A stretch of 63,093 nucleotides of DNA, filler included, from Collodictyon triciliatum (taxonomy: Eukaryota): NCBI GenBank assembly GCA_043381765.1. It is 42 parts of 42 records of this genome, joined end to end, with 100 filler letters (N's around TTAATTAATTAA, not from the genome) between each part and the next. Parts side by side here need not be neighbours in the genome. Positions count along the whole stretch, not along the records: positions 48,210 to 49,609 come from JBHJMP010011186.1; 41 more parts are not named here. One strand, given 5' to 3'. Under the pieces are notes generated by a model that was not told the origin of the DNA, ran no database searches, and saw nothing but the letters and a program-made list of their open reading frames with translations. Below are positions 47,945-51,109 of this stretch, in pieces. The translations under genes and the position numbers were made by a program. Every line of letters starts with the position of its first letter. Position 1 is the first letter of the stretch.

Positions 47945-48209
47945 TAGAAAGATCATGGGAATATGTTGATGAGGACAACAACCAGCACCACATTTGCATA
48001 ATTCTAGTGGTAATTAAAGAAAAAGAAAAAGAAAAAGAAAAAGAAAAAGAAAAAGAAAAAGAAAAAGAAAAAGAAAAAGAAAAAAGAAAAAAAAAAAAAA
48101 AAGAAAAAANNNNNNNNNNNNNNNNNNNNNNNNNNNNNNNNNNNNNNNNNNNNTTAATTAATTAANNNNNNNNNNNNNNNNNNNNNNNNNNNNNNNNNNN
48201 NNNNNNNNN

Positions 48210-49238
48210 CACGGCGAAGAGGCCTGCCTTCAGCTGCACCTTGTATGCTGCGCCGAAGCCGCCCTTGCCCAGAAAGTTGTCCCGCTTCTCAAAGTCCATT
48301 GTCAGGAGATCGGCGTAGTTGCCACGGGCCAGGCGGCTGGTTGGGGCGGCGTAGATGCCGGACTGGATGTTGGGACTGGCTGCAACCTGTGTAAGTGGAA
48401 GGTTTGTGTCAGGTAAGTCTGTTAGCTTTTATGGCTTATGCGGTGGTATCGACCTAGGGGTATGTTAGTTGTGTCCTGTGTTGTGTATGTGTTGGTTGAG
48501 GGTGGATGTGTGCTTACGGGGTCGTAGAGCTGCAGAGCGCGGATGTGTTTGTTGTCATCGTATCCTGTGTTGTTCCAGCAGGGGAGATTGGAGATGCCAC
48601 GCGGGGCTCTCTTTATGGTTTGTGTCCATGTATATTTTATCCAGAGATTTTTCAGATTTGTGAGCGCTGTGATCTGTGCTGGAAGCTCCTCCATCTGTGT
48701 GTATCGTTGTCAGTCATTTTCTTTTAAACATAAATAGTAATATAATATATGAATAAAAACATACCGGATTTCTTTCAACATCAAGACGTGTAAGACCAGT
48801 CAAACATGATATTTGTGCAGGTAGTGATGACAGCTGATTGACACTAACATAAAGTATACTGAGACCAGTCAAACACGATATTTGTGGAGGTAGTGATGAG
48901 AGCTTATTGCCATAAACATAAAGTACACTGAGGCCAGTCAAACACGATATTTGTGCAGGTAGTGATGACAGCTTATTGTTATAAACATGAAGTACACTGA
49001 GACCAGTCAAACACGATATTTGTGCAGGTAGTGATGACAACTGATTGCAATCAAGATATAATTCTTTCAGACCGGTCAACAAAAAAACACCAGGCGGCAC
49101 AGATGACAGTTCGTTGCCACCGAGATTCAGATATGTGGAGCTTTTTAGACTGGCAATATCAGCAATTGGATCGTAAGAGAGAATCCGGACTTCTTCCAAA
49201 AGTGCATCCACTTGGGCAGGTGTGAGACAGTCAGACAT
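48210..49238 (-). CDS. Cytosolic LRR protein with a downstream protein-kinase exon (LRR family copy A)
   Basis: Exon 49238-48765 has 23-aa LRRs (LSSLPAQISCLTGLxxLxVxxN) and is followed by exon 48694-48518. An exon from 48386 reads ...DNFLGKGGFGAAYKVQLKAGLFAV (kinase subdomains I-II). All junctions are phase 0. Confidence 0.85.
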
Positions 49239-49709
49239 CTGGACAGATTCCGGCTGTGTATATGGGTAGACTGGCTATGTGTCAATACAATACACATCTT
49301 TTATTTGTTTTATGAGTGGACTTCACAATCACACATGACAGAATAACTCGAGTCAGGACGGTAGGGTTGTGCACATAGAGAACAGAAAGTACTTTGTGAA
49401 AGAAAAAAGGAAAGCAAGTATTTCGACAAGACGACATTAAATATCCCCCAAAGGCCGGCGGATTTTTCAGAGAAGACGACTTGTGCAGAACTTGTGTGCT
49501 TGTGTTTCCTTGGAAATTCACCGGTTCGGGGTTGGCCACAGACAAGGTTGACCTCTTGCATCGAAAGTCTTGGGAATAGCCGGGTGCTTGTCGCGTGCGT
49601 CACCGGGCGNNNNNNNNNNNNNNNNNNNNNNNNNNNNNNNNNNNNNNNNNNNNTTAATTAATTAANNNNNNNNNNNNNNNNNNNNNNNNNNNNNNNNNNN
49701 NNNNNNNNN

Positions 49710-51109
49710 ACTGCTGGTGATACTTTGGGTCGTTTTTTAGCAGAACGATTGACTGTTGCGAGCACTGTCACCACAGTCCGAAATACATTAAATTGTCTTT
49801 CATTAAATGGAACGGGTGGTACAGCGGGCAATCCTGCTATTATTTTTGGAGACAACACAACTTTACCAGCCGCAAACAGAAGCGGTATTTATGGCGCAGA
49901 TGATACTGTAAATATTAGCACGGGTGGGACTGAACGTCTGGTTATAAATAATGCAGGGGCAACTCTTACAGGCAATCTAGTTATGGCCGGAACTAGCGGC
50001 GGCATTGGTGTCATAGCAAGTACAGCAGATGCGGCTGGTTTATATAGTACAACAAATACATCAACAGGCATCCGATTTCAAAACACAAATAACAATATTC
50101 GAATTCTATGTAATACAATAAACATTTTAGACTGTACACGCAACTCAAGCACTAATGAAGGGATAGCGTCTATGGAAGAGGTATTACAAATAAAAAAATC
50201 TGTGCGCACGCCAATAAACGAAGTAAATGCAGATTTTACAATTGGAGCGTTAACACCTCGGTTTCTACGTGTAGATATTGCTAACGGAACTCAATTAATT
50301 AACTTATTGTTAATGCCAACTAGATGCGAAGCACAATATCATACAGTTCTTCCATTCAAAAGTAGTGTGAATGCTAATAGACTTTATATTACAACAGCCG
50401 GATCAACTACAGTTGAAATACATTATTATGAGAACAAAGTAAAAACTGTAATTACTGGAAATACGCAATTTGAAATTTTTGAGGGTGTAGTGTATCAATG
50501 TATCTACAAATCTACATCAGCTACTACCGGAATTTGGTATTTTTGGCCGGATTGTAATACTGCATCTCAGAGTATAGTAACTGTTACCGGTATACAATTT
50601 GGTGGAGCAGGGTCTTATATTACTGGAAGCAGCACAGGACAGTCAAGTACAATGACTATGCAGTTAAATTCAAATACTGTAATGTCAACGACACAAGACG
50701 ACTTTTCTATTTTCAACACCTTAAAACTGTCTAAGGCAATAAGTGGAGATTTTATTGTTGTTGACAATGGAACATTTAATATCACTCGAGATATTCCACG
50801 TAGAATTATTCTAACAAAGGCGGTGTCAGGATCGGCAACGACTAATATACATTTTCCCAGTGCTACAGCAGTGCCAAACGGTCTGGAAGTTGAAGTAATC
50901 GTGTGGAACCTTCCAGGAAAAAACGGAACTGGTTATAAAAGAATAAGATTCAACCAGGCAGGCGCAGAGCCAAACAACAGCGCGTTTATAATAGGCGCAT
51001 CTAATCTTAATATGATGGCACTTCAAAATACAATTTATGAGGTAGCAGAAGGCACTTGGTTTAGAGCATGTTGTATGAGAGTTGGAAATGGTGTTCCAGG
51101 TGAAACAGT
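49710..51109 (+). CDS. Viral tail-fibre/structural-like protein, internal fragment
   Basis: Intronless and G/T/N/S-rich, with GTAGNPAIIFGD....SGIY..DTVNISTGGTERLVINNAG, a fibre-type motif, followed by a second degenerate copy. Confidence 0.55.

What the first reader, a model, noticed from the sequence alone, without database searches (positions are those of the whole stretch)
48518..49609. Paralogous LRR genes with a fixed backbone and introns but hypervariable ligand-face residues: candidate diversified receptor family
Seen: this contig and 60509-61596 align end to end. Intron 1 (~70 nt), the upstream ~370 bp and the LRR backbone codons (LSSLPAQISCLTGL) are almost identical. The exposed xxLxLxxNx positions differ in every repeat. 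Copy A: TYLNLGGNE, KELYLDCNQ, SVLHVYNNK, SVLYVYGNK, SILYVSVNQ, TRLDVERNP, KNLWIKYTW. Copy B: TSLDLGSKN, KRLYLGNNK, TYLDVCGNK, TKLYVHENQ, KELYLDVNE, TELAVFNNP, KSLYINNGS. Known: these positions form the concave binding face that diversifies in lamprey VLRs, plant NLRs and brown-algal LRR-ROCO proteins. Inference: coding sites that diverge more than introns point to diversifying selection or targeted conversion. Two copies among ~42 contigs, with no signal peptide or TM segment, suggest a large cytosolic non-self sensing family in a protist.
Basis: partly seen in the sequence, partly recalled or inferred. Interest (0 to 1): 0.85.

Follow-up and report, generated by a model that had tools for sequence, protein, structure and literature searches.

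The report
Diversified cytosolic LRR-kinase gene family
Two short contigs carry sister genes of a multi-copy family from an unidentified freshwater eukaryote: the leucine-rich-repeat scaffold is nearly frozen, the predicted ligand-contact residues differ in almost every repeat, and one copy appears to be spliced onto the start of a protein kinase, as expected of a recognition-receptor family.

Summary
Contigs 48210-49609 (A) and 60200-61596 (B) carry paralogous minus-strand genes. About 370 nt of upstream sequence, a 70-nt intron, the next exon and the first ~73 nt of a second intron are 92-96% identical. Each gene has seven 23-residue LRRs. Residues 11-23 are the same in 89 of 91 positions; the six x positions of LxxLxLxxNx match in only 11 of 42.

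Non-synonymous divergence at x positions is 0.46 per site. It is 0.06 in non-coding DNA (p 1e-21), 0.22 at LRR synonymous sites (p 1e-4) and 0.28 at cassette-local synonymous sites (p 0.048).

- Copy A continues across a 131-nt intron into what looks like the start of an RLK/Pelle-like kinase.
- Copy B switches inside that intron to an (AEEAKR)n module.
- Most of the "upstream" region is probably a 5'-UTR intron.

Public-run contigs show spliced forms, at least about ten variants and seven further cassettes. No close relative was found in the protein and contig collections searched.

My reading is a germline-diversified cytosolic LRR-kinase family, closest in concept to brown-algal LRR-ROCO genes. 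Immune function, targeted conversion and the "protist" label remain untested.

The parts
49271..49609 (-). Copy A: conserved upstream region, inferred to be the 3' part of a 5'-UTR intron. The acceptor AG lies at 49271-49272.
   Evidence: It differs from copy B at 23 of 367 aligned sites, with 1-2 nt indels and therefore no reading frame. Contigs of runs X2 and X4 leave the genomic sequence at 49272, and one at 49252, and continue into a common 27-nt leader (table 7). This is inferred, not proven.
49239..49270 (-). Copy A: 5' UTR between the inferred acceptor and the start codon.
   Evidence: Neither the leader nor this stretch contains an ATG, so 49238 is the first ATG of the spliced mRNA (read from the sequence).
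48765..49238 (-). Copy A coding exon 1 (474 nt, 158 aa): N-terminal helix cap plus LRR units 1-5 and the cassette half of unit 6.
   Evidence: Translation. Pfam LRR_8 E 9e-23. AlphaFold model with mean pLDDT 73 and strands at 36-38, 59-63, 82-86, 105-109, 128-132 and 151-155.
48793..49047 (-). Copy A: 69-bp tandem array (3.7 units). Each unit is a 30-nt variable cassette plus a 39-nt near-invariant backbone.
   Evidence: Tandem Repeats Finder. Unit matrices: backbone 35-39 of 39 nt identical among the 8 central units of both genes; cassettes 16-27 of 30.
48695..48764 (-). Copy A intron 1 (70 nt, GT..AG, phase 0).
   Evidence: Gene model. A joint 48694->48765 skipping 70 nt is seen in 2 contigs of run X1, shorter side 49 letters (table 5).
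48518..48694 (-). Copy A coding exon 2 (177 nt, 59 aa): rest of unit 6, unit 7, and a C-terminal cap-like stretch.
   Evidence: Weak Pfam LRR_14 match.
48387..48517 (-). Copy A intron 2 (131 nt, GT..AG, phase 0). Only its first ~73 nt (48445-48517) are homologous to copy B.
   Evidence: A joint 48384->48516 (cut +2), skipping 131 nt, is seen in 2 contigs of run X2 at depth 164. The shorter side is only 28 letters, below the tool's 30-31-letter rule. The homology break is visible.
48210..48386 (-). Copy A coding exon 3 (cut by the contig end): linker, then a glycine-loop motif, the apparent start of an RLK/Pelle-like protein kinase domain.
   Evidence: All 15 PDB matches at E<=10 are protein-kinase N-lobes (BRI1, BAK1, PLK1, RIPK, PBL2, LYK3), each individually non-significant at E 0.16-1.3. 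One plant-like RLK matched at E 5.7e-4 in 1.84 billion representatives. Pfam gave no match.
61223..61596 (-). Copy B: conserved upstream region, homologous to 49239-49609.
60755..61222 (-). Copy B coding exon 1 (468 nt, 156 aa).
   Evidence: Pfam LRR_8 E 1e-20.
60686..60754 (-). Copy B intron 1 (69 nt).
   Evidence: 66 of 69 aligned sites are identical to copy A.
60509..60685 (-). Copy B coding exon 2 (177 nt).
60445..60508 (-). Copy B: homologue of the start of intron 2. It is a possible 64-nt phase-0 intron ending in AG at 60445-60446.
   Evidence: Read from the sequence. No spliced read was seen for it.
60200..60444 (-). Copy B: open frame of (AEEAKR)n, an 18-nt tandem repeated 10.5 times, which replaces the kinase exon of copy A.
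   Evidence: The same junction appears as loose ends at 48445 in runs X1 (2 contigs) and X2 (1 contig) (table 7).
14912..14938 (+). 27-nt leader sequence in another contig. It is identical to the 5' leader joined to family transcripts and is followed by (AG)n up to the contig end.
   Evidence: The 16-nt core matches once in the window with 0 mismatches, against 0.05 expected by chance. Sequence read.

Best explanation
A and B are two members of a multi-copy nuclear gene family of an unidentified, probably freshwater, eukaryote. The family encodes cytosolic proteins with a short helical N-terminal cap and about seven 23-residue LRRs of the SHOC2/ROCO class.

The 5' module comprises the 5'-UTR intron, coding exon 1, intron 1, coding exon 2 and the first ~73 nt of intron 2. 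It is shared nearly unchanged between copies and is joined to different 3' modules: an apparent RLK/Pelle-like kinase in A and an (AEEAKR)n helix-type repeat in B. The break lies inside intron 2, which indicates exon shuffling by intronic recombination.

Within the LRR array each 69-nt unit has two halves. The 39-nt half (LSSLPAQISCLTG, the convex helix side) is almost identical at the DNA level in every central unit of both genes. The 30-nt half (LxxLxLxxNx, the beta-strand and adjoining loops of the concave face) differs.

Most likely mechanism (inferred): germline birth-and-death evolution. Unit duplication and cassette exchange are helped by the identical backbones, gene conversion keeps the framework and non-coding parts homogeneous, and diversifying selection retains different concave-face residues. 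Each paralogue would therefore bind a different intracellular ligand and, in kinase-bearing members, report it by phosphorylation.

Shown: the anatomy, the divergence pattern, the multi-copy state and splicing of intron 1. Supported but not shown: the link to the kinase. Inferred: selection, cassette exchange and a recognition function. A role in sensing non-self is the most attractive option but is untested.
For: Anatomy and statistics:
- Gene models.
- Amino-acid identity is 11/42 at x positions, 25/28 at core positions and 89/91 in the backbone.
- Nei-Gojobori estimates: x positions dN 0.72, dS 0.26; backbone dN 0.006-0.01, dS 0.20.
- x non-synonymous 48/104 versus non-coding 32/511 (OR 12.8, p 1e-21) and versus all LRR synonymous 27/123 (OR 3.0, p 1.3e-4).
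- Backbone nucleotide divergence of 16/273 equals the non-coding level, but 14 of the 16 changes are synonymous.

Cassette exchange:
- Synonymous sites of the L/N core codons inside cassettes differ at 8/24, against 32/511 in non-coding DNA (p 1.5e-4).
- A2 is closest to B5, not B2 (25 versus 23 of 30 nt).
- A3, A4 and A5 are mutual near-copies (23-27 of 30).

Structure:
- The model places strands at unit positions 3-7 and helices at positions 16-20 with period 23.
- The nearest solved structures are LIC11098, LRRD1 and SHOC2.

Family size and expression:
- 208 contigs of run X1 and 162 of run X2 were laid at 85% identity or more. In X1 the identity bands are 36 at 99%+, 63 at 95-99%, 70 at 90-95% and 39 below 90%.
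- Up to 11 contigs carry an alternative letter at one place.
- Of the 40 variant places shown (89 more not shown), 24 lie in LRR units, and 23 of those 24 lie in cassettes.
- Joints from exon 2 into several backbone positions have 1-27 unmatched letters between them. Read by hand, these give seven further cassettes that keep L1, L/F4, V6 and N9 and change the x positions.
- Intron 1 is spliced out in 2 contigs of X1.
- A freshwater metatranscriptome run (X4) also has a spliced paralogue.

Kinase: all 15 PDB matches are kinase N-lobes. A loose end beyond the contig end, translated by hand, continues the frame with a beta-3-type AVKK motif (table 7).

Cytosolic location: no TM-like or signal-like segment in 276 aa.
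Against: - Only two copies are available with phased cassettes, and both are truncated.
- Measured against synonymous sites within the cassettes, the excess is about 2-fold and marginal (p 0.048). Relaxed constraint plus old cassettes could explain much of it.
- Synonymous sites in the exons (0.18-0.33) are more diverged than the introns and upstream region (0.06). The non-coding yardstick is therefore itself constrained or recently homogenised, and it overstates the contrast.
- Kinase identity rests on 58 residues. Pfam gives nothing, each PDB match is non-significant, and the best hit in 1.84 billion representatives was a spurious bacterial repeat protein.
- The exon 2 to exon 3 joint has a shorter side of 28 letters at min_likeness 85, below the tool's own criterion.
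- Short-read contigs across 39-41-nt identical backbones may be chimeric, so the order of cassettes in A and B is not certain.
- Runs X1 and X2 are only guessed to be RNA, and they also contain unspliced forms.
- There is no ligand, phenotype or organism, and no related family in any collection searched.
Confidence: 0.6

Rival explanations
1. These are ordinary signalling-scaffold paralogues, like SHOC2, LRRK or RSU1 LRRs that bind endogenous partners. The x positions are simply weakly constrained and old. The framework, introns and upstream region look young because gene conversion or regulatory constraint keeps them alike. No arms race or non-self recognition is involved.
For: The nearest solved structures are endogenous scaffolds: SHOC2 and LRRD1. 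Against cassette-local synonymous sites the ratio is only about 2, with p 0.048. Exon synonymous sites are 3-5 times more diverged than non-coding DNA, which points to homogenised or constrained non-coding parts. In Ectocarpus, LRR-kinases showed no shuffling or clustering, unlike the ROCO genes (PMC3341825, passages read).
Against: x-position non-synonymous divergence still exceeds every synonymous yardstick used. There are many variants, with variation concentrated in cassettes in independent runs (23 of 24 listed places). Backbone positions that are solvent-exposed on the convex side, and usually free to vary, are frozen (89/91). Plain relaxed constraint does not predict that contrast.
Confidence: 0.25
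2. Diversity is generated by a programmed or somatic mechanism. The invariant 39-nt backbones act as homology guides for copying 30-nt cassettes from donor units into expressed genes, as in lamprey VLR assembly or antigenic-variation systems.
For: The backbone is identical at the DNA level across units and genes, including synonymous sites (35-39 of 39). Cassette-sized replacements, 10-27 letters between joints that land on backbones, are seen in run contigs (table 5c). An A5-like cassette is seen as the last unit in another transcript.
Against: There is no evidence of within-clone variation, and contigs cannot show it. All observations are equally explained by many germline paralogues. No incomplete germline gene, donor arrays or deaminase or recombinase are in view. 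A and B both look like complete, spliceable genes.
Confidence: 0.05
3. The mosaic pattern is partly an assembly artefact. Short-read assembly of a repeated family collapsed or cross-joined paralogues at the identical backbones, so A and B are chimeras, and the B junction to (AEEAKR)n is a misjoin.
For: All contigs are about 1.4 kb and often end in simple repeats. Both contigs break at nearly the same upstream point. The backbone identity of 39-41 nt is longer than common k-mers. Logan contigs of this family are shattered into pieces of 100-170 nt (table 8).
Against: The B-type junction recurs in two other runs, in 3 contigs (table 7). Reads of 100 nt or more span a backbone and both flanking cassettes. 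Both contigs keep an open frame, canonical splice sites and an exact 23-residue register. Chimerism would reshuffle cassettes but would not create the cassette-versus-backbone contrast.
Confidence: 0.1

Closest known systems
Brown-algal (Ectocarpus and kelps) LRR-ROCO and LRR-kinase candidate immune receptors (PMC3341825 and PMC11378527, passages read)
   Same: A multi-copy family in a non-plant, non-animal eukaryote. LRRs of 23-24 residues of the LxxLxLxxNxL type. Positive or diversifying selection mapped to concave-face residues. Unit duplication and exchange within and between loci. The LRR domain is fused to an intracellular signalling domain, and some members are LRR-kinases. No TIR, NB-ARC or CC domain.
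   Different: In brown algae each LRR is its own 72-nt phase-2 exon and is shuffled as an exon. Here five and a half units lie in one exon as a 69-nt tandem array. The output domain there is mostly ROC-COR; here it is an apparent kinase or an (AEEAKR)n repeat. Ectocarpus LRR-kinases were reported not to shuffle. No sequence relationship closer than generic LRR was found. Whether the Ectocarpus LRR-kinases have a TM segment is in supplementary tables I could not open.
Plant LRR-RLKs (RLK/Pelle kinases) and the LRR receptor kinases of oomycetes, Monosiga, Chlorella and Ectocarpus (PMC3268121, passages read)
   Same: LRR domain N-terminal to a kinase. The best matches of the kinase start are BRI1, BAK1, PBL2 and LYK3. 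In plants, x positions of the LRR are the ligand-binding and fast-evolving sites (recalled knowledge).
   Different: Those proteins have a signal peptide, an extracellular LRR domain and a transmembrane helix. Here there is no signal-like N-terminus and only a ~45-residue hydrophilic linker between the LRRs and the glycine loop. The repeat is 23 residues of SHOC2/ROCO type, not the 24-residue plant-specific type.
ROCO proteins (LRRK2, Dictyostelium and cyanobacterial ROCO)
   Same: The most similar LRR sequences in the 5.8-billion-protein collection are ROCO-type LRRs at 40-57% identity, many with Ras/COR Pfam domains. Both are cytosolic. LRRK-type members also end in a TKL kinase.
   Different: No ROC-COR lies between the LRRs and the kinase start in copy A. 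The spliced product goes from the last LRR through ~45 residues directly to the glycine loop.
Lamprey and hagfish variable lymphocyte receptors (recalled knowledge; no call)
   Same: Invariant framework with hypervariable concave-face residues in cassette-like LRR units. Short stretches of identity between units could guide copying.
   Different: VLRs are secreted or GPI-anchored, have cysteine-rich LRRNT/LRRCT caps, and are assembled somatically from an incomplete germline gene. None of this is seen here, and A and B look like complete germline genes.
SHOC2, LRRD1 and Leptospira LIC11098: the nearest solved LRR structures
   Same: 23-residue LxxLPxxIxxLxxLxxLxLxxNx repeats, E 3e-66 to 2e-48. 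The predicted solenoid has a strand every 23 residues.
   Different: Similarity is generic for the repeat class. The N-terminal cap, exon 2 tail and linker have no match. None of these is reported as a hypervariable paralogue family fused to a kinase (recalled).

Membership tests
Leucine-rich repeat proteins, 23-residue SHOC2/ROCO-type class | Tandem LxxLxLxxNxL motifs recognised by LRR profiles | tested here: met
   Pfam LRR_8 E 9e-23 (A) and 1e-20 (B), plus LRR_4, LRR_14 and LRR_1 above their cut-offs.
Leucine-rich repeat proteins, 23-residue SHOC2/ROCO-type class | Repeat period of 23 residues with LxxLPxxI in the variable segment, and a solenoid with one strand per repeat | tested here: met
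   69-nt period. The AlphaFold model (pLDDT 73) has strands every 23 residues. The best PDB matches are LIC11098, LRRD1 and SHOC2.
LRR receptor(-like) kinases (plant LRR-RLK, protist LRR-RK) | N-terminal signal peptide and extracellular LRR domain | tested here: not met
   The N-terminus MSDCLTPAQVDALLEEVR is hydrophilic and predicted helical. This is a crude hydropathy test; no dedicated signal-peptide predictor was available.
LRR receptor(-like) kinases (plant LRR-RLK, protist LRR-RK) | Transmembrane helix between the LRRs and the kinase | tested here: not met
   The highest 19-residue Kyte-Doolittle mean in the 276 aa of spliced copy A is 1.34, inside an LRR. The linker between the last LRR and the glycine loop is hydrophilic.
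LRR receptor(-like) kinases (plant LRR-RLK, protist LRR-RK) | Complete protein kinase domain of the RLK/Pelle (IRAK) group | tested here: inconclusive
   Only 58 residues are available. All 15 PDB matches at E<=10 are kinase N-lobes, with BRI1 and BAK1 at the top, but E is 0.16-1.3. Pfam gave no match. The catalytic motifs lie beyond the contig end.
ROCO (LRRK) family | ROC GTPase plus COR domain following the LRRs | tested here: not met
   In copy A the splice joins the LRR exon to a linker and glycine loop with no intervening GTPase. This is unknown for copy B beyond the (AEEAKR)n repeat.
Brown-algal exon-shuffled LRR receptors | One LRR per 72-nt phase-2 exon | tested here: not met
   Units 1-5 and half of unit 6 lie in a single 474-nt exon. 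The only intron in the array is phase 0, after the cassette of unit 6.
Brown-algal exon-shuffled LRR receptors | Excess non-synonymous change at concave-face positions | tested here: met
   x positions have dN 0.72 against dS 0.20-0.35. p is 1.3e-4 against all LRR synonymous sites and 0.048 against cassette-local sites. This is a pairwise test on two genes only.
Variable lymphocyte receptors | Somatic assembly from donor cassettes into an incomplete germline gene; LRRNT/LRRCT cysteine caps; secretion signal | not testable with these tools
   Contigs cannot show within-clone variation (caveats). No cysteine-rich caps or signal sequence are seen in the translation.
NLR (NB-ARC or NACHT plus LRR) | Central STAND NTPase domain | tested here: not met
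   No such domain is present in the 276 (A) or 215 (B) residues. The LRRs are N-terminal and start 33 residues after the first Met. Parts beyond the contig ends are unknown.

The most novel reading that the evidence does not exclude
The DNA-level invariance of the 39-nt backbone is not a by-product of protein constraint. It is the working part of a cassette-exchange mechanism. The identical backbones guide frequent copying of 30-nt concave-face cassettes among many loci, possibly also during clonal growth. That would give a unicellular or small freshwater eukaryote an individually variable repertoire of cytosolic LRR-kinase sensors, a VLR-like logic with a kinase output.
Probability: 0.06. Interest if true: 0.9.

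Novelty: new variant of a known kind. Interest (0 to 1): 0.55.

Why it matters
Hypervariable LRR repertoires are the basis of recognition in plant immunity, lamprey adaptive immunity and, putatively, brown algae. If confirmed, this would be an independent example in an uncharacterised freshwater eukaryote.

It has an unusual design. The protein is cytosolic with no TM segment. The 23-residue units are arrayed in one exon, and the framework is frozen even at synonymous sites. The same sensor head is recombined, through an intron, onto different output modules: an apparent kinase or a charged helical repeat.

This would add a data point on how often eukaryotes have invented diversified intracellular receptor families. 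It would also offer a compact system, 30-nt cassettes between fixed 39-nt anchors that are easy to amplify, for testing whether such diversity is purely germline or also arises within clones.

Tried and rejected
- **Whole genome:** none is held, so copies could not be counted in the assembly.
- **The search for related loci, metagenome contigs, with the A/B alignment:** 592 pattern matches, 0 confirmed.
- **Backbone DNA pattern:** 0 matches in metagenome contigs and 0 in genome contigs.
- **Protein collection, exon 1:** longer proteins (1627 hits among 8000 scored candidates) and near-length proteins (266 hits). All were generic LRR proteins at 57-59% identity or less, with no family member. 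Crowding by long LRR proteins is possible.
- **Protein collection, exon 2, longer proteins:** 2 candidates, none at E<=10.
- **Exon 3 against 1.84 billion representatives:** 2 hits. One was a spurious bacterial repeat protein and one a plant-like RLK.
- **Pfam on exon 3:** nothing.
- **ESM Atlas:** only generic bacterial LRR clusters.
- **Rfam on the window:** 0 matches.
- **Earlier findings of the scan:** nothing by place, sequence or words.
- **Sequencing runs:** no run holds more than 13% of the sampled words.
- **Depth:** conserved segments are 10-100 times deeper than the A-specific cassettes and intron 1. The tool says summed contig depth is not copy number, so I do not use it as such.
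- **Parts of contig A without cover in X3 and X4:** not interpreted.
- **Spliced-leader trans-splicing:** considered for the common 5' leader and not adopted. A shared 5'-UTR exon duplicated with the module explains it as well, and the one genomic copy (14912-14938) is followed by (AG)n, not GT.
- **A and B as orthologues from two species in a mixed sample:** considered and rejected. Both the A-type and B-type 3' junctions occur in the same run, X2.
- **Organism identification:** other contigs gave only eukaryotic gene fragments.
Full report
**What the window is.** The 63,093-base window is not one locus. It is 44 contigs of about 1.4 kb, sorted by length and joined by N/TTAATTAATTAA linkers, with GC from 0.27 to 0.59. 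ORF scans of the other contigs give eukaryotic gene fragments: a UBC E2 exon, ATG9, a PDEase, TIG domains, zf-RVT and an NRPS-like frame. Rfam finds nothing. No whole genome is held. The finding concerns contig A (48210-49609) and contig B (60200-61596).

**Check of the observation.** A and B are the only pair of the 44 contigs with inter-contig similarity: 1186 bp at 87% (alignment). The gene lies on the minus strand. My model is as follows.

| Feature | Copy A | Copy B |
|---|---|---|
| Start codon | 49238 | 61222 |
| Coding exon 1 | 48765-49238 | 60755-61222 |
| Intron 1 | 48695-48764 (70 nt, GT..AG, phase 0) | 60686-60754 (69 nt) |
| Coding exon 2 | 48518-48694 | 60509-60685 |
| Next | intron 2, starting with GTAAGC | homologue of the start of intron 2 |

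A versus B p-distances are 0.063 upstream, 0.043 in intron 1, 0.080 in the first 75 nt of intron 2, 0.151 in exon 1 and 0.108 in exon 2. Pfam confirms LRRs (LRR_8 E 9e-23 and 1e-20). Tandem Repeats Finder reports a 69-bp array of 3.7 and 4.3 units. The 41-nt backbone occurs 8 times at 3 or fewer mismatches, against 0 expected, and only in these two contigs.

**The pattern, quantified.** Each gene was put in a 23-residue register with position 1 as the first L of LxxLxLxxNx. A and B then agree at 11 of 42 x positions (2, 3, 5, 7, 8, 10), 25 of 28 core positions (1, 4, 6, 9) and 89 of 91 positions 11-23. Nei-Gojobori estimates:

| Site class | dN | dS |
|---|---|---|
| x positions | 0.72 | 0.26 |
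| core positions | 0.089 | 0.44 |
| backbone | 0.006-0.01 | 0.20 |

Non-synonymous differences at x positions are 48 of 104 sites. They exceed non-coding differences of 32 of 511 (OR 12.8, p 1e-21) and all LRR synonymous differences of 27 of 123 (OR 3.0, p 1.3e-4). Against synonymous sites inside the cassettes only (13 of 46) the excess is about 2-fold and marginal (p 0.048; Jukes-Cantor ratio 2.0).

Two further points matter. First, backbone nucleotide divergence of 16 of 273 equals the non-coding level, but 14 of the 16 changes are synonymous. Among the eight central units of both genes the 39-nt backbones are 35-39 of 39 identical, whether compared within or between genes, while the cassettes are 16-27 of 30. 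Second, synonymous sites of the L/N core codons inside cassettes differ at 8 of 24, and backbone synonymous sites at 14 of 77. Both are significantly more diverged than the introns and upstream region (p 1.5e-4 and 0.001). Selection on point mutations at x residues alone would not produce this. It suggests that cassettes are older than, or exchanged independently of, a framework whose non-coding parts are homogenised or constrained. Consistent with exchange and duplication, A2 is closest to B5 (25 of 30) rather than B2 (23 of 30), and A3, A4 and A5 are near-copies of one another (23-27 of 30).

**Structure.** An AlphaFold model of exon 1, built from a two-sequence alignment, has mean pLDDT 73 and pTM 0.71. 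It shows an N-terminal helix (residues 7-20), then strands at 36-38, 59-63, 82-86, 105-109, 128-132 and 151-155, and short helices at 72-76, 95-99, 118-122 and 141-145. In unit terms the strand covers positions 3-7 and the helix positions 16-20. Variable positions 3, 5 and 7 therefore lie in the strand, and positions 2, 8 and 10 flank it. By established knowledge of LRR solenoids (recalled), this is the concave face. The frozen segment forms the convex side. The nearest solved structures are Leptospira LIC11098, LRRD1 and SHOC2 (E 3e-66 to 2e-48). These are 23-residue LRRs of the SHOC2/ROCO class.

- *Copy A apparently continues into a kinase exon.* After a 131-nt intron (48387-48517, GT..AG, phase 0) the frame continues in an exon running to the contig end (48210-48386). 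It encodes a hydrophilic linker followed by a glycine-loop motif. All 15 PDB matches at E<=10 are protein-kinase N-lobes aligned at their starts, led by BRI1 and BAK1, with PBL2, LYK3, RIPK and PLK1. Each is individually non-significant (E 0.16-1.3). Pfam finds nothing in 58 residues. The search of 1.84 billion representatives returned one spurious bacterial repeat protein and one plant-like RLK at E 5.7e-4. A loose end beyond the contig end, read by hand table 7, continues with an AVKK-type beta-3 motif. I put the kinase reading at about 0.8.
- *Copy B has a different 3' module.* Homology to A stops 73 nt into intron 2. B continues with an 18-nt tandem repeated 10.5 times that is open as (AEEAKR)n. 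This frame is reachable in frame through an AG at 60445-60446, which would make a possible 64-nt intron. No spliced read supports that. The same junction recurs in runs X1 and X2 (3 contigs), so it is not a misjoin peculiar to this assembly. The shared 5' module has thus been combined with different 3' modules by a break inside an intron.
- *Most of the "upstream" region is probably a 5'-UTR intron.* Contigs of runs X2 and X4 leave the genomic sequence at 49272, and one at 49252, and carry a common leader (table 7). The leader's 16-nt core occurs once elsewhere in the window (14921-14936, 0 mismatches, 0.05 expected). The first ATG of the spliced mRNA is then the one at 49238.

**Location in the cell.** No TM-like segment occurs in the 276 residues of spliced copy A. 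The highest 19-residue hydropathy mean is 1.34 and lies inside an LRR. The N-terminus is hydrophilic. The protein is therefore most likely cytosolic.

**Family size and expression.** No public run holds more than 13% of contig A's sampled words. I laid four runs at 85% identity or more.

- Runs X1 and X2 (small, same study, guessed RNA) gave 208 and 162 contigs on this 1.4-kb stretch, spread over all identity bands. In X1: 36 at 99%+, 63 at 95-99%, 70 at 90-95% and 39 below 90%.
- At single places up to 11 distinct contigs carry an alternative letter, so there are at least about ten variants.
- Of the 40 variant places shown (89 more not shown), 24 lie in LRR units, and 23 of those 24 lie in cassettes. 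Cassettes make up 43% of unit length.
- Intron 1 is skipped exactly in 2 contigs of X1 (shorter side 49 letters).
- Intron 2 is skipped exactly at the predicted phase-0 borders in 2 contigs of X2. The shorter side is only 28 letters, below the tool's own 30-31-letter criterion, so this link is supported rather than shown.
- Seven joints run from the start of exon 2, or from a cassette, into backbones of different units, with 1-27 unmatched letters between them. Read by hand, they give further cassettes: LEVLFVFNNP, LxxLAVCANP, LIGLYVSDNP, (LTRLD)IFLNP, LSILYVSVNP, LSVLYVWSNP and LEYFDVSVNQ. All keep L1, L/F4, V6 and N9 and change the x positions. Some imply a different number of units.
- A freshwater metatranscriptome (X4, 14 contigs) has a spliced paralogue. 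A freshwater metagenome (X3, 7 contigs) has near-identical pieces.
- X1 and X2 also hold unspliced forms, so they are not pure mRNA.

**Relatives elsewhere.** None was found beyond generic LRRs. The protein collection gave ROCO/SHOC2-type LRR proteins at 57-59% identity or less, and nothing for exon 2. The metagenome and prokaryote-genome contig scans found nothing. The ESM Atlas returned generic bacterial LRR clusters. The scan's earlier notes hold nothing.

**Interpretation.** The best-supported reading is a germline-diversified, multi-copy family of cytosolic LRR proteins with modular outputs: an apparent RLK/Pelle-like kinase in A and a charged helical repeat in B. Unit duplication and cassette exchange between identical backbones, framework homogenisation by gene conversion, and diversifying selection on concave-face residues would together produce the pattern. 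A similar contrast, loci homogenised by concerted evolution while binding sites stay diverse, is discussed for MHC genes. That comparison is recalled; I saw only the search listing, for example PMC3434948.

A recognition-receptor role is plausible but untested. The main rival is a set of endogenous signalling scaffolds with weakly constrained x positions. That rival is helped by the marginal result against local synonymous sites. A somatic, VLR-like mechanism is not excluded but has no direct support. Partial chimerism of the short-read contigs could scramble cassette order but would not create the contrast.

**Comparison with known systems.** The closest in concept are the Ectocarpus and kelp LRR-ROCO and LRR-kinase families. 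Those comprise 37 ROCO and 15 LRR-kinase genes, one LRR per 72-nt phase-2 exon, exon shuffling in ROCO but not in LRR-kinases, and positive selection on the concave face (PMC3341825 and PMC11378527, passages read). The present genes differ in having the units as a tandem array inside one exon, in lacking ROC-COR, and in the intron-borne swap of 3' modules.

They are not LRR-RLKs in the strict sense, because they lack a signal peptide and a TM helix (PMC3268121, passages). They are not ROCO proteins (no ROC-COR in A), not NLRs (no NTPase seen) and not VLRs. The architecture of the Ectocarpus LRR-kinases may bear on how new the TM-less LRR-kinase arrangement is.

I found no description of such a family in my searches, which were limited to open-access full text.

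**Verdict.** The finding is a new variant of a known kind, namely diversified LRR receptor families. Interest is moderate to high, tempered by two truncated copies, an unknown organism and no functional evidence.

Noticed in passing
window 14912-14938 (+), contig 13600-15008: A 27-nt sequence is identical to the 5' leader that run contigs join to the 5' UTRs of the LRR genes. In the genome it is followed directly by (AG)n up to the contig end, with no GT donor visible. It could be a shared 5'-UTR exon or a spliced leader.
   Followed up: partly
window 60200-60444 (-): An 18-nt tandem repeated 10.5 times is open as (AEEAKR)n, an ER/K-type charged repeat. It replaces the kinase exon in copy B. 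It gives a weak low-complexity Pfam match only (Plasmodium_HRP, below cut-off).
   Followed up: partly
window 48445-48453 (-) in copy A: The AG acceptor that would open the (AEEAKR)n frame in B is conserved in A. There it leads to a stop after five codons, so use of this acceptor would give an LRR-only isoform. No read evidence.
   Followed up: no
window 31687-33090 (-): A 468-residue frame, open from end to end of its contig, has irregular LRRs (Pfam LRR_8 E 4.5e-16). It is unrelated in sequence to the A/B family.
   Followed up: partly
window 24158-25561 (-): An intron-less 468-residue frame has AMP-binding and PP-binding domains (NRPS-like) in a contig of 29.5% GC. Whether it is of eukaryotic, horizontal-transfer or contaminant origin is unresolved.
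   Followed up: no
window 49710-51107 (+): A 466-residue frame, open across its whole contig, is rich in G/T/N/A, resembles a fibre or adhesin, and has no Pfam match. Possibly bacterial or viral.
   Followed up: no
window 20216-21042 and 34697-36100: Two contigs with GC of 0.56-0.59 stand out among mostly 0.27-0.46 contigs. They have long open frames on both strands and no Pfam match. The assembly probably mixes organisms.
   Followed up: no
window 48020-48109, 60060-60099, 61697-61860, 14937-15008: Many contigs end in microsatellites such as (GAAAAA)n, A/C-rich runs, (GAAA/GAGA)n and (AG)n. The assembly breaks at simple repeats.
   Followed up: no
contigs A and B, exon versus non-coding sites: Synonymous sites of the exons (0.18-0.33 differences per site) are 3-5 times more diverged than intron 1, the start of intron 2 and the upstream region (0.06). 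The non-coding parts are either constrained or recently homogenised.
   Followed up: partly
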